Source: Eledone cirrhosa (Eukaryota). From it: DNA of 64,000 nt. Numbering within the stretch: position 1 is the first letter of the stretch; each line of letters opens with the position of its first letter. The notes beneath the pieces were generated by a model that saw only the letters and a program-made list of their open reading frames with translations, was not told where the DNA came from and did not search any database. The translations under genes were made by a program, and so were the position numbers. The stretch covers positions 138,260,001-138,324,000 of the forward strand of contig OZ024741.1 of assembly GCA_964016885.1 (NCBI GenBank), written 5' to 3'. Below, in pieces: positions 17,672 to 61,790 of the stretch.

Positions 17672-20600
17672 TAATAATAATGATTTCTTTATTAGTCACA
17701 CATGGCTCAAATTAAGGAAACATTAAAGATGATACAGTACGAGACAGTTTGGGTTTTCCTTTGTGTAAAATGCAATTTATAAATGAGACTAAGAAAATAA
17801 TCATTTAAAACAAAGATAATTTCTTCCGCAAAGTTGAGGGGACTCTAAGGGTCACTCGTGTAGAAATCCCACAAATGCTACGCTCACCTTGTCCGCCAAG
17901 GCAAAGTACCTCTCCTAGTCTTTCTACTCCAATCTAATGGCGTATGCTCAAGGCAGGCCTATTCACACGGACCATGCTCGCTAAACTCACCCATTCACCG
18001 GCCTTTCAACAAACTGGTTGGAATGCAGCATTTCTTTCTCCACCCTGATTTTCCTCTTTAAGTGAAATCTGAAAAAAGTTAATCAAGGCTTCGCCAAAGA
18101 GGAAGGTGGCTTTCTTCAGCCATTTGAAAAGCGTCCACCATACGACCTATTTCACCATGCTCACCAGGCATATACAAACTGCCTGTCCTTCCCCTCAAAA
18201 GGAGGAAGGTGGGGTGATCTTTACAATGGACTCAGTTGATCTGTCGGATCTGTCCTACACGTGACAGCAGGTTCTCCACATAAACACACAGGTCAGTAAT
18301 ACTCTGCAACTTGACGAGTGCGTGCAAAACGGTTTCCTTTCCCTACTCGCACCTAGGACAGGCCAGATTGACGGCTCTTCGATGCATCTAGAGTTTATTT
18401 CGAACTGGCAAAGCTCCTGAGTAGAACTGCCAGGCCAGGGATTTCGGAAAGCTGTCCATGGGCTCTGGCCCGAAAGTTCTCCCAAAGAGATTGGCGAGTT
18501 AATTTTCATCGACGCCCAGATTCTCCCCAAGGATGTCGTCACTCTTTCCCTCCACTAACCCTCTATAGAACGCCAAGGTGGAGTTTCCACGGATCGCAGC
18601 GCGACTGGTCGAGGGCTGTGAGCTCCTGAAGCCATTCCAGTCTCCAAACACTTCCTCTTGGTCTTCGCTTCACCCAGGTCTGTACCTCTTTCAAGGAGAC
18701 GAGCCGGGGAAAACGTGTCTAGCAAATACGGACCACATCTGTTAATTGTCAAGGAAGAGATGGAGATGCCGCAGCCTCTGTGCATGTCTGGGCATCATCA
18801 GCCATGGCATGCTCAGCCCTCCACGTGGCGGGTGTTGACAGAAGATGGACCTTCTGACCATTGGAGCACGTTCGTTCCACAAAAAGCGAAAGGGCAGACG
18901 CACCAGTGCAGTCAGGCGAGACTTAGGACAAGGCATGACTGTCAGAGGGTCGTATATGATGGACACGATCTACGTGTTTGCCACCTCTGTCAGGCCTTTC
19001 AAGTATATTTTCCTCTCGGCCCATTTCGGGATGAGAGAAGCCACCTTGAACATTACCTGGTCCCAGGTTTTGTCCATCTGGAGGTACCGTCAAAATCAGA
19101 CTCCGAGTAATTTAACCGGTCCGTCCGTCCAGCACCCGACGATACTGTTGGACGGCATGGATCTGCCTCTCCAAGTGCTGAGCTGCAAATCCACTGACTT
19201 TTCCTTGTTGGTGTTTGCTTCTGTTACCGAGTAGACTCCTTGAGAGTGGTACCGATCATCTCAATGCGTTTGGTGCTCGACACCACTAAGGTGACGTCGT
19301 CGGCATATGCCAACACGGATCTACTGCATCCTAGTTCGTACGCGATGCCCCTCAAAGTCTCCAATTTTTGTAGTAATGGCTCAAGGATCAATACATACAG
19401 AAAGGATAAAAGGGGACATCACTGGCGAACAGAGGGCATGCTGTTGAATGGTTCCGCAAGGTGACCATTCATTCTAACCACGTGTATTTACACTGCCTAT
19501 CTTGAAAGAAGCCATGTTGTATGAAGGAAAAGTGGGAAGTCCACATACCTTAGTCTTTTAGGGGAAAGATGGTTGTTCCGTACCGGTGGTCAGATGTGCG
19601 TTCATTTGCAAGTATGTCTCCATATGTCCTTCTGGAGGGTGTCCTTCGGTATTCACCAATTGTTTTCCAATTTGTGTAATTTTTAAAAAATCTATGTTTA
19701 TAATTTGTATGTGTGTGGGTGGCGTGAATTTTGGAGGTGTCATTTCATGTGTTCCTGAAATACTTGAGTTATATGTAGTCGATTAAATGTTGGTTGTTCA
19801 AGTTTATTGCTGTATAGTGTGTGCAGGAAGTATATTTCTGTTGGATTTACTTTTGTTGTTGTGGATGTGGAATTGGTTCTGTTTGGGATTGTTCTGGTGT
19901 CTGCAGAGTCTGTTCTGGTGTTAATGGTGGTGGTTGTGTGGTTGCTGATGGTGGTAGTGGTGGTGGTGGATAAGGTGGTTCTGGTTTCGCTGGTGTAGAT
20001 GTTGGTAATAGTTGTCAAGGTTTCCTTCTTTTTTTAGGGGGTGACATCAGAGAGTTGGTGGCTGTGCCGCCGCTTCAGTCTCTGTCGTGTTTGTTGCTGT
20101 TGGTGTTGTTCCTCCCTCTTTTTCTTACTGTCGTTGTAGATGCTTTTGCTGTTGTTGGTGTTGTTTCTGCAAGTTGGGTGTTGGTATTGTATTCCTTGCT
20201 CGGGGCAGAAAGCCCTTATATGAGTGTTTGAACCGTAGATATAACACGAATCCGCTGCCTCTCTCCCACAATTATGAACAGTTGTGTGCCATTTGGCAGC
20301 TCGATGATATCAGGAATCTTTCTTAGCTTTTTCTGATACATTTGAAGAAGCTCCATCCCCAAATCGTTCCAGCTCTCCTGCGGACGTTTTCAATATCCTC
20401 TTCGTCTTTCAAGATGGCTGGTTGCTGGCCGGAGTATTTTTATCTCGGGCGTAACATTTTTTATTGTAATATTTGTTACATATTTGCCCATGTGTGTCGG
20501 GATCAGCAGGAACTTCTCACTCTTTAAGGGGTTGATAGAGTGAGACTTCGCTTCGATTTCCGAAGCCAATCTCACTTTTGTCGTCCAGCACTATATTCCT

Positions 20601-21230
20601 CTAAAGACAAAGGTTTTCTTTTCGCAATATTTCACTTAATATATGTTGCGCTTCCTCCATAGAGGGTCGTTACCGGCGTTTGCTGCGGAGATCTACGCAT
20701 TTATAAATAATTGTACATTTCTGTACATTGGCAATTATCTCGTCCGGCACTGCTAGATGCACTTTGCTGCCCTTTCTTTGAATAAGGTTCTTCTCCTCTC
20801 TAAAGGTAGCTAAGACTAACTTGTTGCTTGCGGCTGTCTTTGATGCCACACTATATTGACTTTTTTTCTTTGGTAGCAATGTTGTTGTTATAGTTGTTTT
20901 ATCGCGATCGTATTCGTTGGCGGCAGTGGTGGTGGTGGACAGAATAGTAAAACCTTCAACGTCTGTAGCTGTGATTTGCCAGTTGTTGTTCTTGTTGTTG
21001 TTGCTTTTATCGTCGTTGGGAGTATAGTTGACAACAGCTTTTAAAACTGGACAATTTTGAATTTTTTTTCAGAAAATGGTAAGAAAATTCCACATTGGAT
21101 AGGACTAAAATTATCGTTCCGCGAGGGTTACTAAATATATATTGTTTCAGTAATTGGTTATGTCGAAATTTTGTTACGATTGTTGCTAAATTAGCAAGAA
21201 AATTTAAAAGACTTATCAGCGGCAAATATA
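17672..21230 (-). mobile_element. Old, internally deleted Tx1/L1-clade LINE (pseudo ORF1 and ORF2) related to the 45708-51443 element
   Basis: Minus-strand fragments FLWNERAPMVRRSIFCQHP..GGLSMPWLMM and AYADDVT; ORF2 start MASFKIGSVN at 19515; ORF1 zinc-knuckle remnant SCYIYGSNTHIRAFCP near 20240-20200; 3' end AATAAAGAAAT+(ATT)n near 17680. Confidence 0.9.
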
Positions 21231-21277
21231 GCGTAGCCTTATCACCCGTGTGAATGAAAATAATAAAAATAATATAA

Positions 21278-21487
21278 ATAATGGTTTCTTATATAAGTAC
21301 AAGGCCAGGAATTTGAAGGGGAGGGGAAAGTTAATTAAACCTACTCCAGTGGGTGACTGGTACTTTATTTTATCGACCCCGTAAGGATGAAAAGGAAAGC
21401 TAACCTCAGTGGGATTTGAACTCAGACAATAATGGGCCGTAACTCTATGCTGCAAAGCATGGCGTCCGACCCTCTAATGATTTCTGT
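21278..21487 (-). mobile_element. tRNA-derived SINE
   Basis: ctggtactttattttatcgaccccgtaaggatgaaa...gggatttgaactcag is the reverse complement of the SINE consensus seen at 6937. Confidence 0.85.
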
Positions 21488-21605
21488 ATACTGTTTTTTT
21501 TTTATTATAATCAATTTGATGTATTAACTGGCTTACCAATGCACACTGTGAATTTATTTGCCCTAGGTGCCAGGAACACACTCGGCATATATCTCAGAAA
21601 CAATA

Positions 21606-21627
21606 ATGAGAGAAAATAAAAATGATG

Positions 21628-21694
<67 letters not shown>

Positions 21695-24524: not shown

Positions 24525-24600
24525 GGCTGCAGGTAGTGGCTTGATATTCAATCCAACGGACTTTCCAATTAACCAACATCAATGACTGAGATTCAAGGAA
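21693..24600 (+). mobile_element. R4/Dong-clade non-LTR retrotransposon, 5'-truncated, inserted in (AAT)n
   Basis: Flanked by (AAT)21 at 21630-21692 and (AAT)n at 24600-24633; homologous to 25354-28250. TAA-repeat targeting is established for Dong (R4 clade). Confidence 0.9.
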
Positions 24601-24633: not shown

Positions 24634-27600
24634 TGATAGTGCCACGCTAAATAATAATAATAGTGATAGTGCCACGCTAAAATCACCGGGGATGATCAAA
24701 TCACTGGGGGTGATGAAATCACCGGTGGTTACGTAACCATACATTCACAAATCCTCGATATGAGTGCTTAAATGTCGAACCTAAACAGTTCGAATAACGG
24801 TGAAGTGGAGACTGGAATGTCATGTGACAGACTCTCACCCAGCAGGTGCTCCCTGGCTCAGCAGCAGGTACCTGGCTGTCAACCAAATACTGCTGGTGTC
24901 GGAAGAAGAAGGAAAGGGACCAGAACCAACTGGACGAAAGAATTTAATATAACTGTTATGCAATGTTACCTGAAGAGTAACCCCAAGGAAAAAGGCTATA
25001 GGAAACGGATGCATCTGGAACAAGATTGGTCTATTTAAATTAGATGAACAAAAATTGGCCGGGCAGGCTCGGGTAATAAGAACTAATGGGTGGATAAGTG
25101 AGCTTGAACTGGAGAAACTCAGCAAAGAGATTAGATTGGAAATGGAGAGTGGAGTATGCCAGGCAAACGAGCCAGTGAGAAATGAAGGTGAAGAGGTTGA
25201 GAGAACGGAGGAAGCATCCGAAGCAGACAATAATCTGAATGCTGAAATGAATAATACCTGGAAGAAAGATACGGCGATTGAGGAAATGAATGCTGACGGG
25301 CTAGGAAAATATTTGGTTGATATCCGAAACTTAGTGGTAGATGAAATGAACAATGGTAGTGAGAAACTTATGAACCTAAGATTTTTAGACAAGAAAAAGT
25401 TAAAAGAAACAACAGCTAAAGTAAACAAAGTCATGCCATAACTTGAGGCGAGGAGCCTTCACCAGTGCAACAATATCCTGAAAGCAACAGCAAATGCGGT
25501 CAGGAAATTACTTGGCATAAAAGCGAGAGGAAACAACAAACAGGAAAGATCAGAACCTTGGTGGAAGAAACGACTGAATGGTCAAATCAGGGAAATGAGA
25601 TACGACATTGGAAAACTTGAGTCCCTACTGAATGGGACACTACAAAACATAGACACTAAAAATAGACTGGAAATAAAGTACAAAACTAGGAGGAAAAAGC
25701 TAAATATTATCATAGAGGAACTGAAGCAACGCATTGTAGCAAAGAGCGCAAAGATTAGGCGATACGAGAGCAGAGTCAGTCAGTATAGACAGAACCGCAT
25801 GTTTGACAACAACCAGAAGATGTTGTTTGGACGGCTTGAAGGGAAAGAAAGAGGCAACGACTTGATCCCTGAGGCAGAACAAACTAAGACATTCTGGAGA
25901 GGAATATGGGAGCATAATGTTGAACATAATGACCAGGCAGTGTGGATTGAGACAGTACAAAAGGAGATTAGTGAACAGGCACACCAACAAACTGATTTGA
26001 GTATCACAGTTGAAACTCTTAAGGGGCAGACCAGAAAACTAACCAACTGGAAATAACCAGGCCCAGATGGTGTGCAGGGGTATTGGATTAAAAATATAAC
26101 ATCCCTCCACCCGAAACTGACAACCATGTTCAATGACTGCTTGGTGTCAGGTGAGGTATCAGAGTGGTTGACAAAAGGTACCACAGTTCTGGTAATGAAA
26201 GACCGAACCAAGGGTAATAATGTTACCAACTATAGATCTATCACATGTTTGTCCGTAATGTGGAAACTGTTAACAAGCATTGTGTCTGAGGAAATCAACC
26301 ATCACCTCCACATAAACAACTTGTTACCGGACGAACAGAAAAGATGCCGAAAGAAGTCCCGTGGTACAAAGGACCAGTTACTTATTGATAAGATGGTAAT
26401 GAGGAATTGCAGGAGACACACTGGTCTTGCCATGGGATGGATAGACTACAAAAAGGCATTCGACATGGTACCTCATTCTTGGATAACCAAAAGCATAGAT
26501 ATCTTCAGGGTGGCAGATACCATCAGACAGTTGTTGAGCAAAGGTATGAAGTCCTGGAAAACAGAGTTAACATCAACTGGAGAATCCTTGGGAAGCGTGA
26601 AGATCAAGAGAGGTATCTTCCAGGGAGATAGTCTGTCCCCTCTGTTGTTTGTCCTTGCCCTGATCCTTCTGACCATTATACTGCGAAAAGTGAGAGCAGG
26701 ATACAAATTGGGAAAGGGAGAGCTTACCATCAATCACCTCCTCTTCCTGGACGATCTTAAACTCTTCGAGAAGAGCGAGAAGGAGTTGGATGTGCTTGTT
26801 GACACTCCGTATTTTCATCAATCATATATGTATGCAATTTGGTATTAGTAAGTTTGGAATACTTGTGATGAAGAGGGGTACATTGAGCAGAAGCAACGGA
26901 ATCCAGGTTCCAACAGGTGAGATGATAAAGGAAATTGATACTGAAGAAGGATACAAGTATTTTGGGTGTTCTGGAGGCTGATGACATCAAGAACAAAAAA
27001 TGAAGGAATTGATAAGATCTGAATACATTCGGAGAGTAAGGAGCGTGTGGAAGTCACATCTGACAGTAGGAATGCCATAAGTGCAGTAAATTCCCGAGCT
27101 GTGTCTATTATTAGGTACAGTGCGGGAATTCTGAGATGGAATGTTGCCGACCAAAAATAAAGGATAGGAAGACTAGGAAGCTATTGGCTATCTACAACAT
27201 GTTCCACAAAAGGAGTGATGTCGATAGACTCTACTTAAGGAAATCTGAAGGTGGAAGAGGTCTTATCAGCATAGAGGACTGTGTTCAGATGGAGAAAAAC
27301 AACCTACACAAATACGTGACTGATAGTAGGGAGCCAATGTTCAGAATTGTACTGAAGGAGAGGACAATTGACCAGGGGATGTCCAAGGAGGAAATAACAA
27401 GGAGAAAGAGCAACCTTCATGAAAAATCCCTTCATGGTGCCTTCTTTGAGAAAACTAAATTTAGAGATCCACAGACATGGAACTGGTTAAAAAGAGGAGA
27501 CCTTAAAAATGCTACAGAAGGTATGCTAATGACTGCGCAAGAACAGGCCCTCAAAACGAAGTGGTTGAAACACCATATTTACAAAGAGGAGGCTAGCCCA

Positions 27601-28252
27601 CTGTGCAGGATCTGTGGAGAGAGAGAGAGGAGACTGTGGCTCACATTGTATCCGAGTGTAAACACCTAGCCCAGACTGACTATAAAGGCTGGAGACATGA
27701 TGTGATGGGCAGAGTGAACCTCTGGCACCTATGCAAAGTAAACAATTTACTACATTCTGAGAAGTGGTATGAGCATTAGCCAGAGTCGTTGATGGAAAAC
27801 GATCAGGTGAAGGTGCTGTGGGATTTTAGGATACAGAAGGACAAGCAATTAGAATACAATAAGCCTCACCTCGGGGTTTTGGGCAAGGAAAAAATATCAT
27901 GCCTGATTGTAGATTTAGCCTGCCCATTTGACACGAGAGTGCAAGAAAAGGAGAGGGAGAAAATTAACCGATACCAGGACTTAAATGAGGAGTTAAAAAG
28001 CATTTGTAACTGCCATGAATACAAGATCGTCCCGATTGTCATAGGCCCACAGGGTACTCAAAGAGTTTCCAAGGATGGTTAAAGAATATTAGTCCAGCCC
28101 CGGATTTTGGATCACTTCAAAAGGCATGCATGCTGTGAACAGCAAGAAGCCTCCGATACGTCCTGAATATCTGAGGTTGCAGGTTGCGGCTTGATAGTCA
28201 TTTCAACAAACTTTCCAGTTAAATAACATCAATCGCTGAGGCTCAAAGAACA
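24634..28252 (+). mobile_element. Full-length but pseudogenised R4/Dong element in tandem with the previous copy
   Basis: ORF broken into pieces (24772, 25055, 25595, 26072, 27136, 27789). Retains the 5' UTR and the N-terminal WTKEFNITVMQCY..GYRKRM..EQKLAGQARVIRTNGW (Myb-like) region; ends in (AAT)n. Confidence 0.92.
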
Positions 28253-28254
28253 AT

Positions 28255-28350
28255 AATAATAATAATGGTTTATTTATTAGCCACACAGGGCTAACATTTA
28301 CACCACAATAACGATGCAGTGTGGGTTTTTGTGTGTAAAGAAGGTTATAT
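28255..28350 (-). mobile_element. Short 3' end of a Tx1-like LINE, tail-to-tail with Dong in the same AAT tract
   Basis: Minus strand GCCCTGTGTGGCTAATAAATAAACC(ATT)n matches the 3' termini near 17690, 59165 and 51415. Confidence 0.65.
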
Positions 28351-28976
28351 GAAAAAAGTAAATAATACACACCTTTCAACAAACATTTTGGAAGTCAGCA
28401 CTTTTCTCTCCAACTTGAAGAGGAAACTACGTATTGCCAAACCTTTCAAATGTTATAGACACCAAGCAGATAAAAACTGTCTGTCTTTCCCGTTCAAAGG
28501 AAGGCAGCGCATATATGATAATGATAATATCAATAATACAACTGGTAGGAGTTTGACCAGACAACGTAGGGGAATATTTAGGTGATGAGACAAACACGGA
28601 CAAAACGAACATGAAGAAGATTAAGAGGGAGAAATGTAAAAAAGAAAAACAATAATGCCAATAAGTATTAGAACATTAAGCAAAAGAAGTGGGCCGAAAA
28701 ACAGGCAAAGGGGAGCAGGAGTGAAAAACGAAGAAAATCCGTTAAGGGAATATATTATTCAACGTTAGCAGCAAGGAAATTATATAAAATGGGACGATAT
28801 TCTTAGAGATGTAAGAATGTAGTGAAGACTAATAAATTGTTAAGAGTATGGTATTTCTCTCTACTATTTTCCATTATCTGATATATTCCTCTCCAGCAGC
28901 TTTGAAGCATTAATAGGGTAAATGTGCCCCTGAAACACAGTGTTGTTTACATATACATACATATTTGCTTACATGC

Positions 28977-44438: not shown

Positions 44439-44498
<60 letters not shown>

Positions 44499-44527
44499 AA
44501 TCTATCTATCTATCTATCTATCTATCA

Positions 44528-44567
<40 letters not shown>

Positions 44568-44571
44568 CTGG

Positions 44572-44606
<35 letters not shown>

Positions 44607-44653
44607 TGATAGATAGATAGATAGATAGATAGATTGATAGATAGATAGATAGA
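44438..44653. repeat. (TATC)n/(GATA)n palindrome centred at 44567
   Basis: Variant units CAA at 44498 and 44526 are mirrored by TTG at 44634 and 44606. Confidence 0.92.
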
Positions 44654-45700
44654 CTCGTCTCACTCACCGAGCTGCAATCCTGGGTCAAGCAAAGACCGAG
44701 AAAACTGGGCGCCTGGCACACTGAGTGTGCCCAGGCGCTCACCGCCCTCTGGCAGGCGGATCCGGTTATCAGTGGAGACTCCACCGCAACATTCTATAGA
44801 GGGCTGGTACGCAGCAGGTGCGACGACGCCCTCGGAGAAGCCCTAGACATGGAGGAGGACGAACTGGCCAGCCTTTTCGGTAGGACATTCAGCCCGGGAC
44901 CTATGGACAACTTCCAGAAGTCCCTGGCCTGGCAGTGCTACCGAGGGGCTTTACCCGTTCGAGAAAGGCTCTACAGACACGGGCGCCCGGGTAGGGACCC
45001 CGCCAAAAAGATCTGTCCCAGATGCGTGTGCGACGAGGAAACCGTTGCACACGCATTAGTACACTGCTCGGGCGTAGCCGATCTGTGGGGCTATGTCGAA
45101 CAACTGCTGTCAAGGGTGGGACCGATCCGGTTGACCACCGAGTCTATTGTAATGATCAAGCCGCCTCCCCCCTTCAAAGATGAAGCAGAGGCGGTGTTTC
45201 TGTGCGTAATAGCCATGGCGAAAGAGGTTGTATGGTGGACGCGTCTGAAAGGACTGAGGTCGGGCACCTTTCTCTCTGGCCAACAACTGGTCCGTTTCTT
45301 CCGATATCATTTCGGAAGAAGGATCAGGATGGAGAGAGAGGTGCTGCACCCCAGCCGTTTCTATGAAAGATGGGTGAAAGTGGCGAGAATGGCCCGTGTG
45401 AATGGGCCTTCACTCTACATCAGACTATAGGTGAGGAAGATGAAAGACCAAGGGAGCACCCCTTCTCTGTGCTCCTGAGGAGAAGGGTTGCACACTTTTT
45501 TCGGGGGTGTGTGCGACCCCCCCAAGGCGCCTCCTCTCTATTGAGGATTTTGTTAAAAATTTTATTTTTTGTTATATCTTATTTTATTTTTATATTTTGT
45601 TATTGCCTCCTCCTTATTGAGGACGCCTTTTTGTGTAAACTCCCCCCTTTGTACTTGTCCCACTTTTGATGCCCTAGTGGCAAATAAAAGAAATATATCT
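44651..45700 (+). mobile_element. 5'-truncated copy of the young Tx1/L1-clade LINE
   Basis: Corresponds to 50393-51443; I see only about 3 substitutions plus homopolymer-length differences. Confidence 0.95.
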
Positions 45701-45923
45701 ATCTATCTCTGGGATGGACACACGCGTATAACTTGCTGAGTAAGTTCTGTTTAAATTTCTATAGAAATTCTTGTCTGATAACTTTAATTTTTGTACCATT
45801 TTGTAGAGGGACTGCCAGGTCAAACTTTGATCTGGTCAGTCTCTCAAAATATTCTACGCCTTTAGGCGAAATAGTTAAAAAAAAAAAAAGTTTTTTCTTG
45901 TTGAAAAGTCAATATTTTTTTAA

Positions 45924-47711
45924 ATGGCCGAAGCTTCTTCACCAAAATTCGAAGGAGGAAAGGGGAAGATGAACTTACAGCTTCCCCCTGCCACTGTCAC
46001 AGTAGCAGAGGTCAAGAAGATAGGTCAGCCAGAGGAAGAATTCTCTCCACCTGTTAACCGACAACTTGACGTTGCCATGGAAACAACCCAAAGAACCAGC
46101 AGCAACAGCAACAACAACAACAATGCGACGGACGAAAACAACACCAATAACAATAACAATAACAACAACAAGACCAATAACGGTGACAACAACAACAATG
46201 ATAACAACAACACCACCAACGACAACAACAACACAAACAAACAAAATTTCTCCTTCGCCGAGACGACAAGGAAAACCCTCGACTATCTGCCAGTAGATAT
46301 AACAAAAGCGAAGGAGCTACTGGCGGATGCGAAAAAATATATAGTGTACGGGGAAAATGGTTCATTCACAATCCATTCCCCCCCGGAACTAAAAAGCCAG
46401 AGACTCCTAAACACGGTCATGTTTAGGACAATCTCGAACAAAAGTAAAAAACCAGCTCAACCATCACAGAGCGAGATAGAGCTGGTTTTAAAAGACGTCA
46501 TGAAGGACATCACCTTCATTCAGAAGGATAGACTCTACGGGAGTCTATCCATTCTCATGAAGGACAGGGACACAGCAGTGAAACTGTCCATCAAACCAAT
46601 CACATCCACCGCATACACCTTCTACCCTACGTACATGGGTAGAAGAACACAAAAAATAAAAATCCACACCATCCTGCCGATTATGGACATATGGTGGGTT
46701 TTGACAGGTTTTCTGGACCTGGAGGATGACATGCTGGTGTCCATGGGAAAGGCATCGGGTGACGCGTTCAGTGGAACGAGCCTCGAACTTGTAGTTCAAA
46801 TGAGGCCCGAAAGGATCGCCCAGATCCCTGAACGCGTCATACTGGATGATCTAACCTTCATCAACATTACCGTTGAGGGTAGACGGCCCTCGTGTTACCT
46901 CTGCGGAACCAGAGGTCACCTGAGGGCTGTCTGTCCCCAACTTAATAAGAAAACCCCAATCCTGCCTACACCACCAACAACTGCACAACCAACACAATCA
47001 CCACAACTACCACTACAAAAACAACCACCACAGCTCAAACCAAAACAAAACAATGTCCAACCCATCCCCTCCACTCAAAAAACAAAAACAATTTCCAAAA
47101 CACCCGTACCGCAAACACAACCCGAAAATATACCCCTCCCCTCCAACGCGGAAGATGACCCTAGTTCGTCGTCAGACGAGGAGGAGCACTTCCACACAAT
47201 CAAAAGAAAAAAAAGAAAACACACCTCAGACACACAAATGAAAAAAAACCCTCCCCAAAACATAACACTGACACCAACACAAAAGAGCTCACAACAGCAA
47301 ACAAAAAACACCACACAAAAACAAAAACATGCATACACATACATAAATACAAGAAACAAAAAACTGTTAAACATTGTGTACAACAACAATCTAATAAAAA
47401 CACAAGGGCCTAACTTCACCCAGGCAGGGGATTTCCCCCACCTCAAAATGATTAAGGCCCCACAGGACACCTATAAAACTTTAAAAAACAATTTTAAAGA
47501 GGACGTGGGTCCCCCCTGCGTCGGGCCCATTAACCGCGTCCTCCTAAAAAACTATCCCACCCCCTCCCCAAACACCCTCACAACTCCAAGCTCCCCAACC
47601 ACACAACACACTGATGCCCCCACACTCCCACAAACCACCACCCCACCCAACAACCCATCCCCCACCCTAATGGAAATTGTGCAGCCCGATACCCGGGACG
47701 CAGAGAGGTAA
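45924..47711 (+). CDS. LINE ORF1 (gag-like nucleic-acid-binding protein)
   Basis: 595 aa, CCHC knuckle CYLCGTRGHLRAVC, Asn-rich N-terminus, basic KRKKRK, Pro/Thr/Gln-rich tail. Confidence 0.9.
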   Translation: MAEASSPKFEGGKGKMNLQLPPATVTVAEVKKIGQPEEEFSPPVNRQLDVAMETTQRTSSNSNNNNNATDENNTNNNNNNNNKTNNGDNNNNDNNNTTNDNNNTNKQNFSFAETTRKTLDYLPVDITKAKELLADAKKYIVYGENGSFTIHSPPELKSQRLLNTVMFRTISNKSKKPAQPSQSEIELVLKDVMKDITFIQKDRLYGSLSILMKDRDTAVKLSIKPITSTAYTFYPTYMGRRTQKIKIHTILPIMDIWWVLTGFLDLEDDMLVSMGKASGDAFSGTSLELVVQMRPERIAQIPERVILDDLTFINITVEGRRPSCYLCGTRGHLRAVCPQLNKKTPILPTPPTTAQPTQSPQLPLQKQPPQLKPKQNNVQPIPSTQKTKTISKTPVPQTQPENIPLPSNAEDDPSSSSDEEEHFHTIKRKKRKHTSDTQMKKNPPQNITLTPTQKSSQQQTKNTTQKQKHAYTYINTRNKKLLNIVYNNNLIKTQGPNFTQAGDFPHLKMIKAPQDTYKTLKNNFKEDVGPPCVGPINRVLLKNYPTPSPNTLTTPSSPTTQHTDAPTLPQTTTPPNNPSPTLMEIVQPDTRDAER

Positions 47712-47735
47712 GTGCCTTTTCTCTTCACCACCAAC

Positions 47736-50700
47736 ATGGCTATGCTAAGAGTAGGCTGTTTAAATGCGCGTGGCCTGGGCTCAACTTGGAAGCAAGCAAT
47801 GCTTCTAAATGACCTCAGGTCACAACGTATAGATGTGATGGTTATTTGCGAGGCCCGGATCAGCAACGTGCGACAGCTGTCCCCCACCTTTGATGACTTT
47901 GAGATGCACGCATCTCTCTGTCAGCCCGGAGGTGGGGGTGGAGTTGTCGTTCTGCTGCAAAAACATCTGGGTCTCGCAACACAGATGGTACATTTGGACC
48001 CGGAGGGTCGACTAGTGGTTCTGGACGTTGGCAGTGGTAAAGGCGGAGCGTTTAGGTTGGTAGCCGCCTACGGCCCTTTCGGGTCAATGCGGCCGGACTT
48101 CTTCCATCGTCTGGAGACTTTTCTAGGGACGTCCCGCTCCTTGCTATTAGTGGGGGACTGGAATGGTATCCTAGATGCACGCTGGGACTACGTAGGGGCC
48201 TGCCCCGATAGAGAGGGGTGTAATAGCCTCAAAGGGTTAATCGGTCGATTTGACCTGGCCGATAGATATCGACTAGATTTTCCGACTGCGCCAACCTGGA
48301 CTTGGGCAAATCGTAGCGGATCATCTAGGTCGTACCTAGATAGGTTCTTAGTTAGAATTAAGGATAAGGACTTTTAAGTTGTCCAAAAATGCGCATGGTT
48401 GGCTATTCAGACCACAAATTAGTGACCTGCATGGTCAACCTTGACAGAACTCATAGACAGGGCCCCGGTTACTGGAAGCTCAACTTGTCCTTGCCGGCAA
48501 GTAGAGCCTACAGGAATCGGATTAGTACGTTAGTTAAGGAACGGTTGACTGGAGCGATCGTCAACAGCAGGTGGTGGGTATCTCTAAAGAGAGAGATTAG
48601 AGTAGTCTCGATAGAATTTAGTAAGGTTCTAGCTGCGGATAGGAATATGAAGGAAAGGGAGCTAATAGATAGAGTAGAAGAGGCAATTAGAAGCGGCGAC
48701 GTGGCCAGAGTGCTAGCGTCGAGAACGGCTTTGAGCCAGTTTTTCGACGCGAAGCACGAAGGCTGCGTTGTCCGAAGTAAAATACGTGCTCTAGGGAACG
48801 AGGGGACCAAAGCTGTTAGCTGGGCCCGCGTGACAGAGGCCAACAGTGGAACTAAATCCACCATCCGGTCTTTGCGAGACCTGGATGGACGGGCGATTCT
48901 TGAGCCTAAGCAGATGTGTGAGGCCTTTCAAAGGCACTTTGCCCGACTGTTCGAGAGGGGCGGGGAGCCGGTTGGGAACGTGGACTTCGGTCCATACCTC
49001 GACGGCCTGCCGCGCCTCTCGGACAGGGAGGCGAAGTCCTGCGAGGAGCCGATTTCGGCCGCTGAGATAGAGGGCGTGCTGAGCCAATGCGGCAAACGCA
49101 AATCCCCGGGTCTCGATGGTCTTCCTTACGAATTATATCTAGCTATGCCGGACTTGTTCCCCGATCTCCTCGAGGCGGTCTACTGCAACTGGCAACAGAA
49201 CGGGAGAATTCCCTGTACTGTGACCAAGGGCGTAGTCACGCTAGTGAGGAAGGACGAGAACAAGGGGGACGAAATAAGTAACTTCAGGCCCATAACACTG
49301 CTAAATACAGAGTTACAGATTTTGGCCAAGGTGCTAGCAAAGAGGTTGGCGCTTGTCGTGGGCAACCTGGTGGGAGATGCGCAGACATGCGCTATCCCGT
49401 CCAGGTCCATCCATGACAACCTCCACCTCATGCGATACATCATAGAGAGGGTTGGGAACGAACCCGGCTTTGGTGGGGCTCTGATCAACTTGGATCAATC
49501 TAAGGCGTTCGATAGGGTCGACCATGGTTACCTGGATGCGGTGCTAGCGGCGGCAGGCTTCGGACCCGTTTTCAGGGGCTGGATCACTGCTATGCACAGC
49601 AGCCGCATCTGCTCTAGGGTCAAGGTGAACGGCTACCTCTCGGAGCCGTTCAAAATCGCGCGGTCCATCCGACAAGGGTGCCCTCTCTCCTCCCTTCTGT
49701 ATGTGTTGACTCTCGAGCCACTACTGCGGAAGTTGGAGTTGTTGCAGGGCATCCCTTTGGAACCGGGATTGCGGAAAGCGGTGTCGGCCTACGCCGATGA
49801 CGTGACAGTAATGGTGTCGACGGCCTCCGAAATCGAGGCGGTCGGCACCTTACTGGAGGAGTACGAAAAGTTCACAGGGGCTAAGCTGAACCGGGACAAG
49901 TCGATCGGTTTGCAACTCGGCACGTGGAGGGGCAGACCGATGCCCTCCGATAGCGTCGTCGGACGCTGGACGGAGGGCCCTCTGAAGTTGCTCGGGGTCT
50001 GGTTCGGACCGGACCTCCAGGTGGAGAAAAACTGGGCGGAGGTTACGAACAGGGTGTTTGCACTGACCCAGAAGTGGGCCAGTTGCAAACTATCCCTGAA
50101 AGGTCGGGCGGAGGTGGCGAACACCTACATAGCGTCCGTCATCTACTACCGCCTGACCGTAGTGCCCTGCCCAAGGGAAACCCTCACCAAGATGGAGCGC
50201 GCGCTCTTCCAATTCCTTTGGAAGAGGCGGGCTCCTATGGTGAGGAGATCCATCTGCTGTCAACACCCTTCGAAAGGAGGGCTGGGGATGCCGTGGCTAA
50301 TGATGCGTAAACACGCATTAAGGCTACGGCACCTCTACGTATTCCTCACCGGACAACCGGTGTGGGCCTCGTTTGTGAGACGAACCTTTCCCAGACTCGT
50401 CTCACTCACCGAGCTGCAATCCTGGGTCAAGCAAAGACCGAGAAAACTGGGCGCCTGGCACACTGAGTGTGCCCAGGCGCTCACCGCCCTCTGGCAGGCG
50501 GATCCGGTTGTCAGTGGAGACTCCACCGCAACATTCTATAGAGGGCTGGTACGCAGCAGGTGCGACGACGCCCTCGGAGAAGCCCTAGACATGGAGGAGG
50601 GCGAACTGGCCAGCCTGTTCGGTAGGACATTCAGCCCGGGACCTATGGACAACTTCCAGAAGTCCCTGGCCTGGCAGTGCTACCGAGGGGCTTTACCCGT

Positions 50701-51172
50701 TCGAGAAAGGCTCTACAGACACGGGCGCCCGGGTAGGGACCCCGCCAAAAAGATCTGTCCCAGATGCGTGTGCGACGAGGAAACCGTTGCACACGCATTA
50801 GTACACTGCTCGGGCGTAGCCGATCTGTGGGGCTATGTCGAACAACTGCTGTCAAGGGTGGGACCGATCCGGTTGACCACCGAGTCTATTGTAATGATCA
50901 AGCCGCCTCCCCCCTTCAAAGATGAAGCAGAGGCGGTGTTTCTGTGCGTAATAGCCATGGCGAAAGAGGTTGTATGGTGGACGCGTCTGAAAGGACTGAG
51001 GTCGGGCACCTTTCTCTCTGGCCAACAACTGGTCCGTTTCTTCCGATATCATTTCGGAAGAAGGATCAGGATGGAGAGAGAGGTGCTGCACCCCAGCCGT
51101 TTCTATGAAAGATGGGTGAAAGTGGCGAGAATGGCCCGTGTGAATGGGCCTTCACTCTACATCAGACTATAG
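47736..51172 (+). CDS. LINE ORF2: APE endonuclease + reverse transcriptase + C-terminal Cys motif; one -1 frameshift near 48372-48375
   Basis: LNARG, E, GDWN, SYLDRF, SDH (APE); KSPGLDG, NFRPITLL, DQSKAFD, RQGCPLS, YADD (RT); CPRC..ETVAHALVHC. Confidence 0.93.
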
Positions 51173-51452
51173 GTGAGGAAGATGAAAGACCAAGGGAGCA
51201 CCCCTTCTCTGTGCTCCTGAGGAGAAGGGTTGCACACTTTTTTCGGGGGTGTGTGCGACCCCCCAAGGCGCCTCCTCTCTATTGAGGATTTTGTTAAAAA
51301 AAATTTTATTTTTTGTTATATCTTATTTTATTTTTATATTTTGTTATTGCCTCCTCCTTATTGAGGACGCCTTTTTGTGTAAACTCCCCCCTTTGTACTT
51401 GTCCCACTTTTGATGCCCTAGTGGCAAATAAAAGAAATATATCTTATCTATC

Positions 51453-51513
<61 letters not shown>

Positions 51514-51514
51514 A

Positions 51515-51560
<46 letters not shown>

Positions 51561-52330: not shown

Positions 52331-52707
52331 GACAATCATACTCTTCATTAATATTTCTGAATATTTGAACTTAATTCCCCATCATCAAGGCTTTTGAAAC
52401 TCTGATAACCGTTCCATTTGCAGGAACAAAGGAACAACATTCTTGTAAAATTTACGTGCGAATATATTTTAGAAATAAATAGCATATGCAAGTATGAGCC
52501 TTCTTTTATATACTTCACTAACAGACGAGATATCCTTTAAATTTAAGTTAATAATTATTAGTGTTAAATGCACATTCCGGCCGGTAATCCACTGGTCAAA
52601 ATATAACATATATATAAACACGTATTGGAAATATATCTCATTGGTATAGATTAATAGTATAGAGTGAATGTAAAAACGTCTAGTTTATATATATATATAT
52701 ATATAGA

Positions 52708-52879
52708 AGTGGTTACACAACAGTTAGTTCACCATCAACACCGAGAACAATTGTTTCACTTTAGCGGATCCTCAGCTAGTTATCTTTACGAGCTGAGGAT
52801 CGTAATCTTTATGAGCTGATGATCCGCTAAGGTGAAACAATTGTTCTCGATATGGTGAACTATCTGTTGTGTAACCACT
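52708..52879. repeat. Miniature fold-back with hammerheads in both arms (52742-52777 minus; 52811-52849 plus)
   Basis: Plus copy: UGAG-CUGAUGA-uccgcuaaggu-GAAAC-AAUU-GUU-CUCG. Arms 52708-52777 / 52814-52879; (TA)n flanks. Confidence 0.8.
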
Positions 52880-53131
52880 CCTACCTAACTCGTCGCATGG
52901 ACTGAGTGCTCTACCACTACGGATATTACCTTTCAGTGTTCTACCACTATATATATATATATATATATTTGAAAAAAGGAAAGGAACGACTTCACTTGTA
53001 GTTCTAAATAATTTTATTTAATTCTATAATAACATACTAATAAATTAAATCAAATTATTTAGAAATTCAAGTGAAGTCATTATTTTCCTTTTTTCAAATA
53101 TACCTAACTGTAGCAAGGATCTCACAAATTT

Positions 53132-53186
<55 letters not shown>

Positions 53187-53214
53187 GCGTGTGTGTATAT
53201 ATATATACATACAT

Positions 53215-53276
<62 letters not shown>

Positions 53277-53344
53277 GATATGTCCCAAGGCTCTGATACC
53301 ATCAACACCATAAACACAGAGCTGGCATATCTAAAAACTGACTA

Positions 53345-53400
53345 ACTGCCTGATGAGGTCATAGCCATTCAATGGCTATCATCGAAATATATATAGCAGT
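53345..53400 (+). ncRNA. Minimal type I hammerhead ribozyme, intact
   Basis: ACUGC/GCAGU helix I; CUGAUGA 53350-53356; helix II ggucauagccau/auggcuaucauc; GAAA 53384-53387; UAUAUA; AUA triplet. Confidence 0.88.
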
Positions 53401-53445
53401 AAATAAAGGATTATGAGTTCATGGAATTGACTTATGTTTCGTCAC

Positions 53446-53545
<100 letters not shown>

Positions 53546-53557
53546 TATTTATTCTAA

Positions 53558-53662
53558 AGAAACAGGACCCCGACAGCTGAGCTCTCGGTTGCAACAGCCA
53601 GTTCCAGAGTCTAGAACTGGCTGTTGAAACGGCAAGAGCTCAGCCATCGTGGTCCTGTTTCT
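53558..53662. repeat. 105-bp fold-back hairpin built from the 3' half of a hammerhead (related to the 60382 family)
   Basis: agaaacaggacc...gctgagctct...caacagccagttc / gaactggctgttg...agagctcagc...ggtcctgtttct; contains GAAACGGC-aagagctca-GCC. Confidence 0.8.
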
Positions 53663-53678
53663 ATATATATATTTATAT

Positions 53679-57679: not shown

Positions 57680-59200
57680 TAATCGAGGCATTAGCGAAGA
57701 ATTTCGCGATTGCACCATTCCAAACACAGCCATCAATGACAACCTCCATCACATGCAATACGCCATGAAGAGGTTAGCTAAGGAAATTGCATGGGTGGGG
57801 ATCTAATAAATTTAGATCAATTAAAAGCATTCTATAGGGTCGAACATTGGTATCTGGTGGCGGTCTTCAAAGCAGCCCGCTTTGGTCCTGTCTACAGGGG
57901 TAGATCTCTGCAATATACAACGATATTTGCTATGTCGTTAAAGTGAACGATCAGCTCAACGAAGCGTTTAATATCATGCTCTTAAACCACCAATGATGTC
58001 CTCCCTCGTCACTGTTATAAGTATTGACTCTAGAGCAAATACACCAATACTATACAAATCGGAGACGTTGATGGGCATCCATTTGAACTAGGATGCCGGA
58101 GAAACGTGTCAACTTATGCGTACGTTGTCACCGTAGTGTTGTTGAGCGCCAAATATATCGAGGTGATCGACACGACACTCAGCAAATTGGAGCATCCATT
58201 CTTCAACTTCGTGTGAACGAGACAGGTTCCACTGATGAGGTGCTCCATCTGCTGTCAACACCCGCAGCGTGGAGGACTAGGCATGCCATGGCTGGCATTC
58301 TAGGCAAGTTTATCTCCATCTTGTTTCTCTGACGGAGACGCAACCCTGGGTCAAGCAGAAATCGAGGGCGACCATTTATAGGCTAGTATGTTTTCTACGC
58401 TCACAGCACACAGCCAAACGGGCATAGCTAACGGTGGAAACTCCACCTTGGTCTTCTACAGAGGGTTAATGATGGGTAAAAGCGACCACATTCTAGGAGA
58501 AAATCCGGGCGTTGAGGAAAATCAACCAGTCAATCTCTTCCGCAGCACTTTCAGTCCAGTGCCCATGGACAACTTACTGAAATATCTCGCATGATAGTGC
58601 TAATGGGACTTCTGCCGATTCGAGATAAACTCTACATCCACGGAAGTTCGGTTAGACGGACCTGCCCCAGTTGCGCGCAGTAAGTCGAGAACATTCGGCA
58701 CGCACTCTCCCAGTGTCCATGCATTACTGACTTGTGGGATTAAGTCCAAAAGCCCGTTTTCGCGTGTAGGATGTATCCGGCTATGAACCGAGACCATAGT
58801 GAAGATGCTCCCACCGTCAACATTTTCAAGTTTCACTTTGATAGGAAGGTTGTGGTATAGAGTGAAGTGCTGCACCGCCAGTACATTTGCTAAAAGCTGG
58901 TTGAATGCTGCGAGAATGGCTCATGTGAATTGACGTACACTTGAGCATGCACCTGTAGGCTGGTTGTTTTGAAAAAGAGAGGAGTGCACTCGTAGCGTCG
59001 GGTGGTTCAGGATTGGGTGGGTTCCCGAGTCACTGTCGGGTCGTTCTCCCCCCTATTGGAGAAGTCTGTCGTTTACATTATTTTGTTAATTCCTTTTGTC
59101 ATTTTTTCACACTATTTTATCTAAACCCTCATTGTCCCAGTCTTTGTATTTTCCTCTATGTTCAGCCCTTGTGGCCAATATAAGAAATCATTATAATCAT
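57680..59200 (+). mobile_element. Old decayed Tx1/L1-clade LINE, 3' part, with (ATT)n tail
   Basis: NLHHMQY, LINLDQLKAF, ICCQHP..GGLGMPWL, FRSTFSPVPMDN remnants; 3' GCCCTTGTGGCCAATATAAGAAAT+ATT repeats. Confidence 0.85.
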
Positions 59201-60475: not shown

Positions 60476-60949
60476 ACCTCTTTATATGGGAAGATTATAG
60501 TTGTCAAGTGGATTGGTTAAAATTTGTTGTAGACACAACTAAGTCTATCATGGCATTTGGTGGGAGGTAGGGGTGGCTGAACCTGCCTGTAGAACAATAG
60601 GGGAGTGAGTGGAGCCGGTCAAGCGTTGAAATTGATAGGTATACAGCAGATTCTAAGGATAGTGTATGAAATGGAGGAGGGAGGTTATAGAATAGGTAAT
60701 TAGAATGAGAGTAGGAGACAGTAAAAGATAATAGAAATAAATAAAAAATATATGAAATTAGATAGTGAGAAATGAATTAAAAAAACCACAATGCTATCTT
60801 ACAATTACAGATTAATAAGTTGAGAATAGAAAAATATTGTAGAAATTGTAACAAAAGTGATACAAAATTGAAGGGGTCGAACACATCTGCTATAAGTAGT
60901 TAGTAAAACATATTCAGCCAATTCTATCCTAGAAAGATCACCAATAACC

Positions 60950-61790
60950 TGGCTAAAAACATCTCCCTCCACATATCTCGTTTGTCCGCTAATGAGCAGA
61001 TATTCGACGAACATGCGCCTCATTACAAGCAGGCCCTCAAGCGGAGTGACTTCCGGGAGGAAATATCCTTTTATCCAGCTTCCCTTAGCGGAACCAGCAG
61101 GCGACACCACCGCTCACGCAACGTAACGTGGTTCAATCCTCCCCATATTTCCGAAGTGGCAACACCTATCGGGAAAATCTTCTTTAGGCTCCTCGAAGAA
61201 CACTTCCCACTACAACACCGCTACCACAACATAATCAACAAAAACACGATCAAACTCTCCTACAGCACCACACCTAACTTTGCACAAAACATCGTCTCCT
61301 CAAACAACAAAAAACTCAACCCCTATGGAAGAAACAACCTAGACATCAGTGGAGAGCCGACCAGGAGGTGTAAATGCCCTGATAGATCTACGTGCCCCCT
61401 CAAAAACAAATGCCGAGAACGTAACGTGGTCTACCAGTGCAACGTGAGAACGGACACCTCCAACAAAGCTTATATAGGATTAACCGCTTGTAACTTCAAG
61501 ACACGGCTCTACCAACACTGACATACTTTCCGAAACCCGGTGCGGCGGTATGCCACTGCACTTTCGGGCAACATCTGGGACCTCCAAGATAATAATATAA
61601 CCTACAATCTCACTTGGAGCTTACTGCCCAGAGCTAACTCTTACACGGGAGGATGCCGTCCGTGTAACTTATGCTCGGATGAAAACATTACAAATGCTGT
61701 TTTCGAAGGACCAACTCCTAAACAAGAAAGACGAACTGGTAACCGCATGCAAACACAGATTGCGTAGGACTTACCTCGCCCTCAAACCCC
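60950..61790 (+). pseudogene. PLE C-terminal linker + GIY-YIG endonuclease (one TGA, one frameshift); resembles Hydra-clade PLEs
   Basis: WFNPP, KLSYS, CKCPDRSTCPLKNKC (CxCx5C), NVVY..YIG..FKTRLYQH, IWDL, CNLC..E, LLNKKDE..CKH. The clade assignment is from memory. Confidence 0.88.

What the first reader, a model, noticed from the sequence alone, without database searches (positions are those of the whole stretch)
44651..51560. Very young Tx1-clade LINE apparently specific for (TATC)n/(GATA)n, with older relatives on (ATT)n: a target switch
Seen: both copies begin and end in TATC repeats. Three older relatives (3' ends near 17690, 28270 and 59170) share the terminal motif GCCCT.(.)GTGGC.AATAAA.GAAAT but end in ATT repeats. 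Established: Tx1-clade families such as Kibi and Koshi target TC and TTC repeats. I do not recall a described GATA-repeat specialist, but cannot exclude one. Inference: the APE domain's specificity changed within this lineage, making it a candidate microsatellite-targeting integration system.
Basis: partly seen in the sequence, partly recalled or inferred. Interest (0 to 1): 0.75.

Follow-up and report, generated by a model that had tools for sequence, protein, structure and literature searches.

The report
GATA-repeat-targeting LINE, ATT-targeting sister
This is a young, high-copy jumping gene of the L1/Tx1 type whose copies sit almost only in GATA short repeats, while a sister lineage that also has young, intact copies sits in ATT repeats, so the pair would let one test what likely sets the target.

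Summary
The targeting is real; the story of a recent switch is not. The stretch holds a 5.7-kb L1/Tx1-type LINE (ORF2 frameshifted once) and a 1,045-nt truncated copy inserted just in front of it, with a 20-nt target duplication and an 82-nt foldback of the upstream flank. Genome-wide, 747 of 850 exact 3' ends run into TATCT and none into ATT. In 53 consecutive copies, 43 also have (TATC)n at the 5' junction wherever truncation fell, none of the 53 3' flanks is in GATA orientation, and many ORF2s are intact. The ATT relatives are not simply older: they form a sister lineage of about 10,000 ends, with 99%-identical copies and intact ORF2s. TATC targeting spans at least five subfamilies. So the split is old and its direction unresolved; descent of this family from the young ATT families is rejected. 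An endonuclease cause is likely but untested (13 fixed differences, one at the DNA-probing hairpin tip); pairing of read-through RNA with the target is the rival. Microsatellite-targeting Tx1 elements are known on other repeats; I found no paper on these targets. The scan noted this family before on other DNA.

The parts
44439..44567 (+). (TATC)n target array upstream of both copies, with two variant units
44555..44574 (+). 5' copy of the 20-nt target-site duplication of copy 1 (three TATC units plus the first bases of the full-length copy's 5' end)
   Evidence: analogous 21-nt duplication that includes a neighbour's 5' end in L111
44572..44653 (-). 82-nt foldback (inverted duplication) of the upstream array, read as (GATA)n; joins copy 1 through a 3-nt microhomology
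   Evidence: junction found once in the genome
44651..45695 (+). 5'-truncated copy 1 (end of ORF2, 3' UTR, AATAAA, no poly(A))
45696..45715 (+). 3' copy of the target-site duplication, overlapping the start of the full-length copy
45710..51439 (+). full-length LINE, 5,730 nt (the two bases before 45710 are shared by most full-length copies and may belong to it)
45924..47711 (+). ORF1, 595 aa, Asn-rich start and a CCHC zinc knuckle (motif read from the sequence; no Pfam hit)
47736..51172 (+). ORF2: APE endonuclease, reverse transcriptase (49268-49912), C-terminal zinc motif (50660-50830); one frameshift near 48371 in this copy, 1,145 aa and open in other copies
51427..51432 (+). AATAAA signal, 7 nt before the junction with the target; no poly(A) tail follows
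51440..51560 (+). (TATC)n target array downstream of the full-length copy
17683..21250 (-). decayed, internally deleted copy of the ATT lineage; ATT-rich at both ends
28268..28504 (-). short 3' remnant of the ATT lineage, followed by (ATT)n and the antisense tail of an R4/Dong-like element
57710..59188 (+). decayed truncated copy of the ATT lineage, ending in ATT repeats

Best explanation
This is a recently amplified L1/Tx1-type LINE that sits in (TATC)n microsatellites in one orientation, likely because its APE endonuclease nicks the GATA strand and the nick primes reverse transcription, and it is the youngest branch of an old TATC lineage whose sister lineage sits in (ATT)n. Shown: junction register (element end, then TATC), target duplications mostly 10-23 nt, no poly(A), fixed orientation, head-to-tail stacking, intact ORFs, two separate lineages each with young copies. 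Inferred: the nick is at or near 5'-GATA|G-3' on the bottom strand; a second nick 10-23 nt away makes the duplication; the target survives on both sides, so later copies stack there. Inferred for this locus: the full-length copy came first; copy 1 then inserted about 14 nt in front of it; the free top-strand end folded back on the TATC array, copied 82 nt, and joined the truncated cDNA by a 3-nt microhomology. Inferred and untested: the TATC/ATT difference is encoded mainly in the endonuclease and arose once, early, in unknown direction.
For: 850 exact 27-nt 3' ends (control 0). 747 of 850 are followed by N-TATCT; a 22-nt form of the end followed by TTATTATT has 0 matches. First 53 hits on contig C1: two or more TATC units at the 5' junction in 43, at the 3' junction in 41, at either in 45; first four target bases TATC 48, TATA 3, TATT 1, TACC 1; 3' flanks TATCTATC 41, GATAGATA 0. 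Background outside the locus: TATATATA 1,920 against TATCTATC 7, so the far commoner TA repeat is avoided. Truncated copies with breakpoints all along the element have TATC at the 5' junction, and copies in other satellites (L099, L107, L130, L133) carry no added TATC tail: a target, not a tail. 22 of 53 have a non-periodic duplication, 6-23 nt, 21 of them 10-23 nt. 14 of 53 have a relative's 3' end just upstream. ATT lineage: 10 of 10 full-length family-1 copies begin right after (ATT)n; 19 of 20 family-2 ends are ATT-type; intact 1,139-aa ORF2 in L149, L206, L214. Tree: TATC clade SH-aLRT 97.5, ATT clade 95. APE catalytic residues invariant or nearly so; model pLDDT 93.8, best fold match human L1-EN, TM 0.82-0.85. 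13 of 240 EN positions are fixed differences between the lineages, against 25 of 905 elsewhere, including S194I at the tip of the hairpin that aligns with the Tx1L loop, the loop implicated in target choice in PMC1950540. EN swaps change SART1/TRAS1 specificity (PMC7265360, introduction). Foldbacks of the 5' flank occur in 0.3% of human L1 insertions, 52-220 bp (PMC10191854, passage).
Against: No biochemistry. The endonuclease and a read-through RNA would both read the primer side of the nick, so genomic junctions cannot separate them. EN domains usually drift faster than RT (recalled), so the excess of fixed EN differences is weak. In PMC1950540 a loop graft did not transfer specificity cleanly, and an H198A tip mutation did not change it. 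8 of 53 copies lack two TATC units on either side, so specificity is strong but not absolute. By eye only about 8 of 24 non-full-length ATT-set copies show ATT right at the 5' junction (older, partly rearranged copies). The 53 are not all independent: three form one tandem array and 14 are stacked. No empty allele was seen; contigs from the same sample break at both arrays. The root rests on outgroups only 40% identical.
Confidence: 0.75

Rival explanations
1. The RNA sets the target. The AATAAA lies only 7 nt before the junction, so transcripts would be cut inside the flanking repeat and carry a few UAUC (or AUU) units. These would pair with the nicked strand and select matching sites, while both endonucleases cut a shared purine-ATA-purine-like site.
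For: AATAAA position and lack of poly(A). Off-target sites still match 5-6 of the first 8 bases of (TATC)2 on the primer side. Some insertions fall at the first unit of an array with no repeat upstream (L120, L124, L126). Both targets contain a TAT core. The distance from AATAAA to cleavage (10-30 nt) is recalled.
Against: The target has stayed tied to the protein lineage across at least five TATC and three ATT subfamilies. Copies with intact ORF2 in other satellites exist (L107, L130), yet no offspring cluster on such targets appears among the 53. No cross-insertion was found: 0 matches; of 47 ATT-like ends on TATC, 8 were checked, 7 are TATC-lineage bodies and 1 is too short to tell.
Confidence: 0.15
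2. One reading: a recent ATT-to-TATC switch created this young family.
For: The three relatives in the window are old and ATT-ended. The deepest sampled branches (L201, L144a) are ATT-ended, and a tree with the whole TATC clade joined to L201 is not rejected (AU p = 0.13), so ATT may have been ancestral long ago.
Against: Nesting of this family among the young ATT families is rejected (deltaL 794, AU p = 4e-38). Older TATC subfamilies are many: 17 of the first 30 loci with the generic 3' motif are TATC-type and 6 ATT-type. The ATT lineage has 99%-identical copies and intact ORF2s. One ATT-inside-TATC tree is also not rejected (p = 0.07).
Confidence: 0.04
3. No targeting: the element makes its own TATC tail, or inserts at random and survives only in repeats.
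For: LINE tails do seed microsatellites (PMC3812793, abstract start). No empty allele was seen.
Against: TATC lies at the 5' junction of truncated copies (43 of 53). Copies are about 99.3% identical, too young for such filtering. Orientation and register are fixed (41 against 0). The far commoner TA repeats are avoided. Off-target copies have no added tail.
Confidence: 0.03
4. For the foldback only: the inverted (GATA)n is a sequencing or assembly artefact, or a later repair event.
For: The junction is found once in the genome, and no contig spans it.
Against: It starts exactly at the end of a 20-nt duplication of normal length, ends in a microhomology with the element, and matches a described L1 by-product in size (PMC10191854, passage).
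Confidence: 0.15

Closest known systems
Kibi (TC)n and Koshi (TTC)n, Tx1-clade elements of teleosts; crocodilian Tx1 families on (TTCC)n/(TTTC)n (PMC4494074: passages and section 15; PMC3812793: passages)
   Same: APE-type non-LTR elements inserted specifically into a pyrimidine-rich microsatellite strand; related families with different repeat units.
   Different: Targets here are (TATC)n and (ATT)n; the host is probably an octopod (closest named hit Argonauta hians, 67% in RT). Relationship to Kibi/Koshi could not be tested: no named sequences were returned.
Xenopus Tx1L (YTX2_XENLA, P0309)
   Same: APE + RT + C-terminal zinc motif; 30% identity over 833 aa, 302 bits; sequence-specific insertion.
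   Different: Tx1L targets a DNA transposon (PMC4494074, passage). In the RT tree this family lies outside the Tx1L/turtle/fish clade, and its hairpin loop is two residues shorter.
Human L1 ORF2p and L1-EN
   Same: Best solved-structure match by sequence (E 5e-48) and by fold (TM 0.82-0.85); target duplications of similar size (recalled); rare 5' foldback inversions.
   Different: L1 has a weak preference for a T-tract/A junction (PMC1950540, passages) and a poly(A) tail; this family has a strict repeat target and no poly(A).
Dong (R4 clade) on (TAA)n (PMC3812793, passage)
   Same: Same trinucleotide repeat as the ATT sister lineage; an R4/Dong-like element lies in (AAT)n in this window.
   Different: The window's R4/Dong-like element carries a C-terminal restriction-like nuclease motif (motif assignment recalled). 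The ATT lineage has an N-terminal APE domain and lies in the opposite orientation.
SART1/TRAS1 (R1 clade) on telomeric repeats (PMC7265360: abstract and introduction)
   Same: A pair of APE elements with different repeat specificities; there an EN swap moves the target.
   Different: Different clade; telomeric target; poly(A)-tailed.

Membership tests
L1-group non-LTR retrotransposon | ORF2 with N-terminal APE endonuclease and intact catalytic residues | tested here: met
   Pfam Exo_endo_phos; E39, D141, N143, D202, H227 invariant and N10, Y112 nearly so in 35 sequences; fold match to L1-EN
L1-group non-LTR retrotransposon | RT domain of L1/Tx1 type followed by a C-terminal zinc motif; separate ORF1 | tested here: met
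   RVT_1 and zf-RVT, the latter below its curated cut-off; L1 ORF2p E 5e-48 against R2 3e-19; ORF1 595 aa
L1-group non-LTR retrotransposon | Signs of target-primed insertion: 5' truncation and target-site duplication | tested here: met
   11 of 53 full length, the rest truncated; 22 of 53 with non-periodic duplications
Tx1 clade (strict) | RT groups with Xenopus Tx1L to the exclusion of L1 | tested here: inconclusive
   RT region 35.7% / 201 bits to Tx1L against 24-29% / 77-121 bits to five plant L1-like proteins. Unrooted, it is on the Tx1L side of a 99.6 split from plant L1, but outside the Tx1L clade (99.4), and the distant R4 root does not unite them. No vertebrate L1 was available as a tree row.
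Tx1 clade (strict) | Target-sequence preference; Kojima's criterion is more than 20% of flanks | tested here: met
   747 of 850; criterion from PMC4494074, methods passage
Kibi/Koshi group | Phylogenetic placement with Kibi and Koshi | not testable with these tools
   No protein named Kibi or Koshi was returned
Kibi/Koshi group | Target (TC)n or (TTC)n | tested here: not met
   Target is (TATC)n; works like them, not filed as a member
Dong/R4 (for the ATT lineage) | C-terminal restriction-like endonuclease instead of APE | tested here: not met
   ATT-lineage ORF2 begins with an APE domain 61-62% identical to the TATC one
Currently active element | Transcription and new insertions | not tested
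   Both ORFs open in L096, L112, L123; expression and polymorphism not shown

The most novel reading that the evidence does not exclude
Two sister LINE lineages that are active side by side keep mutually exclusive microsatellite targets mainly through their RNA: each transcript reads into the repeat it sits in and uses those bases to pick the next site, so the target is inherited from the flank and could be reprogrammed by changing a few 3' bases.
Probability: 0.15. Interest if true: 0.75.

Novelty: new variant of a known kind. Interest (0 to 1): 0.45.

Why it matters
How site-specific LINEs change target is a standing question, and most comparisons involve very distant endonucleases. Here two lineages with 61-62% identical endonucleases, each with intact young copies in one genome, use non-overlapping repeats and differ at about 13 fixed positions. 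That makes EN-swap, point-mutant and RNA-tail tests direct. (GATA)n and (ATT)n would be new targets for this group as far as my searches reach. With more than 20,000 exact 3'-end motif matches over the two patterns, these elements also shape this genome's microsatellites and could confound markers built on such repeats. As an integration tool the value is limited: the targets are dispersed and about one insertion in eight is off-target.

Tried and rejected
DNA search with the 3' 241 nt returned only 5 candidates; exact patterns were used instead. A scan of metagenome contigs for the 40% outgroup P0003, meant to read its flanks and polarise the switch, found no confirmed locus. Cluster look-ups gave no names for 10 relatives. 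The ESM Atlas gave no result. The look-up of sequencing runs: no RNA holder listed. Read laying: contigs break at both arrays, so neither an empty allele nor the foldback could be checked. A full IQ-TREE run timed out; FastTree on 56 RT rows and 41 EN rows and a fast IQ-TREE on 25 chosen rows replaced it. The AU test used 17 rows and 5,000 resamplings, which the program flags as too few. L144a, an old ATT-ended fragment, joined the TATC side weakly (0.73) and the ATT side; it was left out of the AU test. L169 was dropped (motif not found at the expected place). The nick register of the ATT lineage could not be fixed. A splice-donor-like motif at the ORF1 stop is not general (17 of 52 ORF2 starts, all this family). 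I first took the 985-aa ORF at 21567 for RTE; its C-terminal motif points to R4/Dong instead. A sequence look-up in earlier findings gave nothing.
Full report
ANATOMY. The stretch reads: (TATC)n 44439-44567; an inverted (GATA)n 44572-44653; a 1,045-nt 3' fragment 44651-45695; three TATC units; a full-length element 45710-51439; (TATC)n 51440-51560. The fragment is 99.2% identical to the full copy. The full copy has ORF1 (595 aa, with a CCHC knuckle read from the sequence) and ORF2 with APE endonuclease, RT and a zinc motif, broken once near 48371. An AATAAA lies 7 nt before the junction and no poly(A) follows. The window lies in G000, a 3.0-Gb genome. The closest named protein is from Argonauta hians (67% in RT), so the host is probably an octopod. 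My first octopus paper search was made on a recalled impression, before that hit.

TARGET, NOT TAIL. The last 27 nt occur exactly 850 times (control 0). Of these, 747 continue with N-TATCT; a 22-nt form of the end followed by TTATTATT has no match. I took the first 53 hits on contig C1 without regard to flank. Two or more TATC units lie at the 5' junction in 43, at the 3' junction in 41, at either in 45; the first four target bases are TATC 48, TATA 3, TATT 1, TACC 1; the background is 4 of 2,838 windows. 3' flanks read TATCTATC in 41 and GATAGATA in 0. TA repeats are far commoner in the rest of the window (1,920 against 7 eight-mers) yet rarely used. Only 11 of 53 copies are full length, so 5' TATC at scattered breakpoints shows a pre-existing target. 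Copies in other satellites carry no added TATC (L099, L107, L130, L133). Non-periodic duplications were found in 22 of 53 (6-23 nt), and 14 of 53 sit right behind a relative's 3' end. Limits: three of the 53 form one array, stacked copies are not independent, and 8 lack two TATC units on either side. Intact 1,145-aa ORF2s occur in 12 fetched copies, 99.33-99.97% identical; both ORFs are open in three.

THE TRUNCATED COPY. A 20-nt string made of three TATC units and the first bases of the full-length element occurs at 44555-44574 and 45696-45715. I read this as copy 1's target duplication: it inserted just in front of the existing full-length copy, as L111 did in front of its neighbour (21 nt). 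The next 82 nt mirror the upstream array, including its two variant units at the same spacing, and join the element through a 3-nt microhomology. This junction occurs once in the genome. Foldback inversions of the 5' flank are described for 0.3% of human somatic L1 insertions (PMC10191854, passage). Contigs of the same sample do not span it, so an artefact is not excluded.

THE ATT RELATIVES. The three window relatives end in ATT and are decayed; they are 74-79% like ATT family 2 and about 66% like this family. A generic 3' motif has 11,722 hits; of its first 30 loci 17 are TATC-type, 6 ATT-type, 7 other. ATT family 1 has 1,683 ends, most copies 90-98% alike, and 10 of 10 full-length copies begin right after (ATT)n; among 24 shorter copies only about 8 show ATT at the 5' junction by eye. 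A second motif has 9,928 hits, 19 of 20 loci ATT-type, with copies 99% identical and intact 1,139-aa ORF2s. Of 47 such ends on TATC, 8 were checked: 7 are TATC-lineage bodies, 1 is too short to tell. So the ATT lineage is target-specific and includes young families.

PHYLOGENY. TATC and ATT copies form two clades in RT and EN trees (one old ATT fragment, L144a, was unstable) and in a full-ORF2 tree (97.5 and 95). The TATC clade holds at least five subfamilies. In the AU test (17 rows, 5,000 resamplings, flagged as few) the sister tree is best (p = 0.94). One TATC-in-ATT tree (0.13) and one ATT-in-TATC tree (0.07) are not rejected; two others are; nesting this family in the young ATT families is rejected (4e-38). 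The switch is therefore old and unpolarised. The outgroup's targets could not be read.

MECHANISM. Shown: register, orientation, duplications, truncation, intact APE site, L1-EN fold (pLDDT 93.8; TM 0.82-0.85). Inferred: target-primed reverse transcription from a nick at or near GATA|G, with the target left on both sides so that copies stack. The two endonucleases are 61-62% identical. Between 12 TATC and 27 ATT copies, 13 of 240 EN positions are fixed differences, against 25 of 905 elsewhere. They include S194I at the tip of the hairpin that aligns with the Tx1L loop and P157D near the stretch that aligns with the L1 R155 region. PMC1950540 (passages) ties that hairpin to target choice but also found that grafts and a tip mutation do not transfer specificity simply. 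PMC7265360 (abstract, introduction) reports that an EN swap moves SART1 to the TRAS1 site. The rival is pairing of read-through RNA, favoured by the AATAAA position; the long fidelity of target to protein lineage and the lack of cross-insertions argue against it. I put EN-led targeting with an old split at 0.75.

COMPARISON AND NOVELTY. It works like Kibi, Koshi and the crocodilian Tx1 families (PMC4494074: passages and section 15; PMC3812793: passages). It is an L1-group element and closer to Xenopus Tx1L (302 bits, 30%) than to plant L1, but the RT tree of 46 rows does not place it inside the Tx1L clade, so strict membership is inconclusive, and placement with Kibi/Koshi could not be tested. 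Six searches aimed at this question listed no paper describing a (TATC)n/(GATA)n- or (ATT)n-specific Tx1. PMC13282606 (passages) lists 13 recently active L1-Tx1 families in Octopus vulgaris, and the word 'target' does not occur in its main text. PMC8967140, PMC4758252 and PMC4640811 (passages) add no such target. Not seen: Kojima and Fujiwara 2004, Repbase and Dfam entries, the target labels in Fig. 3 and the supplement of PMC4494074, and a 2025 survey of site-specific retrotransposons (recalled; not held). A catalogue entry may therefore exist. Four earlier notes of this scan describe the same family on other DNA; they are not independent support.

VERDICT. A real microsatellite-specific LINE; a new variant of a known kind. 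The recent-switch reading is replaced by an old split between two lineages that both have young copies. Interest 0.45.

Noticed in passing
window 21567-24600 (+), second decayed copy about 24970-27700: 985-aa open frame with RT, zinc motif and a C-terminal restriction-like nuclease motif (R4/Dong-like; motif recalled), with (AAT)n at both ends. 14 of 50 ATT-lineage 3' ends run antisense into this family's 3' tail, so two unrelated LINEs share and nest in one microsatellite.
   Followed up: partly
window 21260-21470 (-); also next to many ATT arrays, e.g. L070, L080, L137, L153: A common short SINE-like repeat whose 3' end resembles the LINE's terminal motif and ends in ATT; it may be mobilised by the ATT lineage. 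In the window it lies just before the 5' end of the old ATT copy.
   Followed up: no
window 45740-45745; 5' ends in L165, L197, L144 and others: A GTAAG splice-donor-like motif about 30 nt from the 5' end recurs in several otherwise unrelated 5' ends of both lineages, but not in all.
   Followed up: partly
window 47712-47735 and ORF2 starts in L096-L215: ORF2 is preceded by a pyrimidine-rich spacer ending in a conserved CAAC/AAAC before the ATG in both lineages; possibly a reinitiation signal.
   Followed up: no
L101, L014, L015 (G000 C1 near 42.27 Mb): Three copies of this family inserted one behind the other at the same site, each duplicating the same short target, directly after the previous copy's 3' end.
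   Followed up: partly
L196-L215: ATT family 2 has several unrelated 5' ends and ORF1 types on near-identical ORF2s, which suggests repeated 5' replacement.
   Followed up: no
window 1-528 and 1218-1736: Inverted duplication of about 520 nt, 96.6% identical.
   Followed up: no
window 52704-53665: Several nested palindromic stretches (52704-52883, 52964-53102, 53435-53564, 53555-53665) around TA repeats.
   Followed up: no
window 60907-61521 (+): 204-aa open frame that looks like the C-terminal GIY-YIG part of a Penelope-like element (motif recalled).
   Followed up: no
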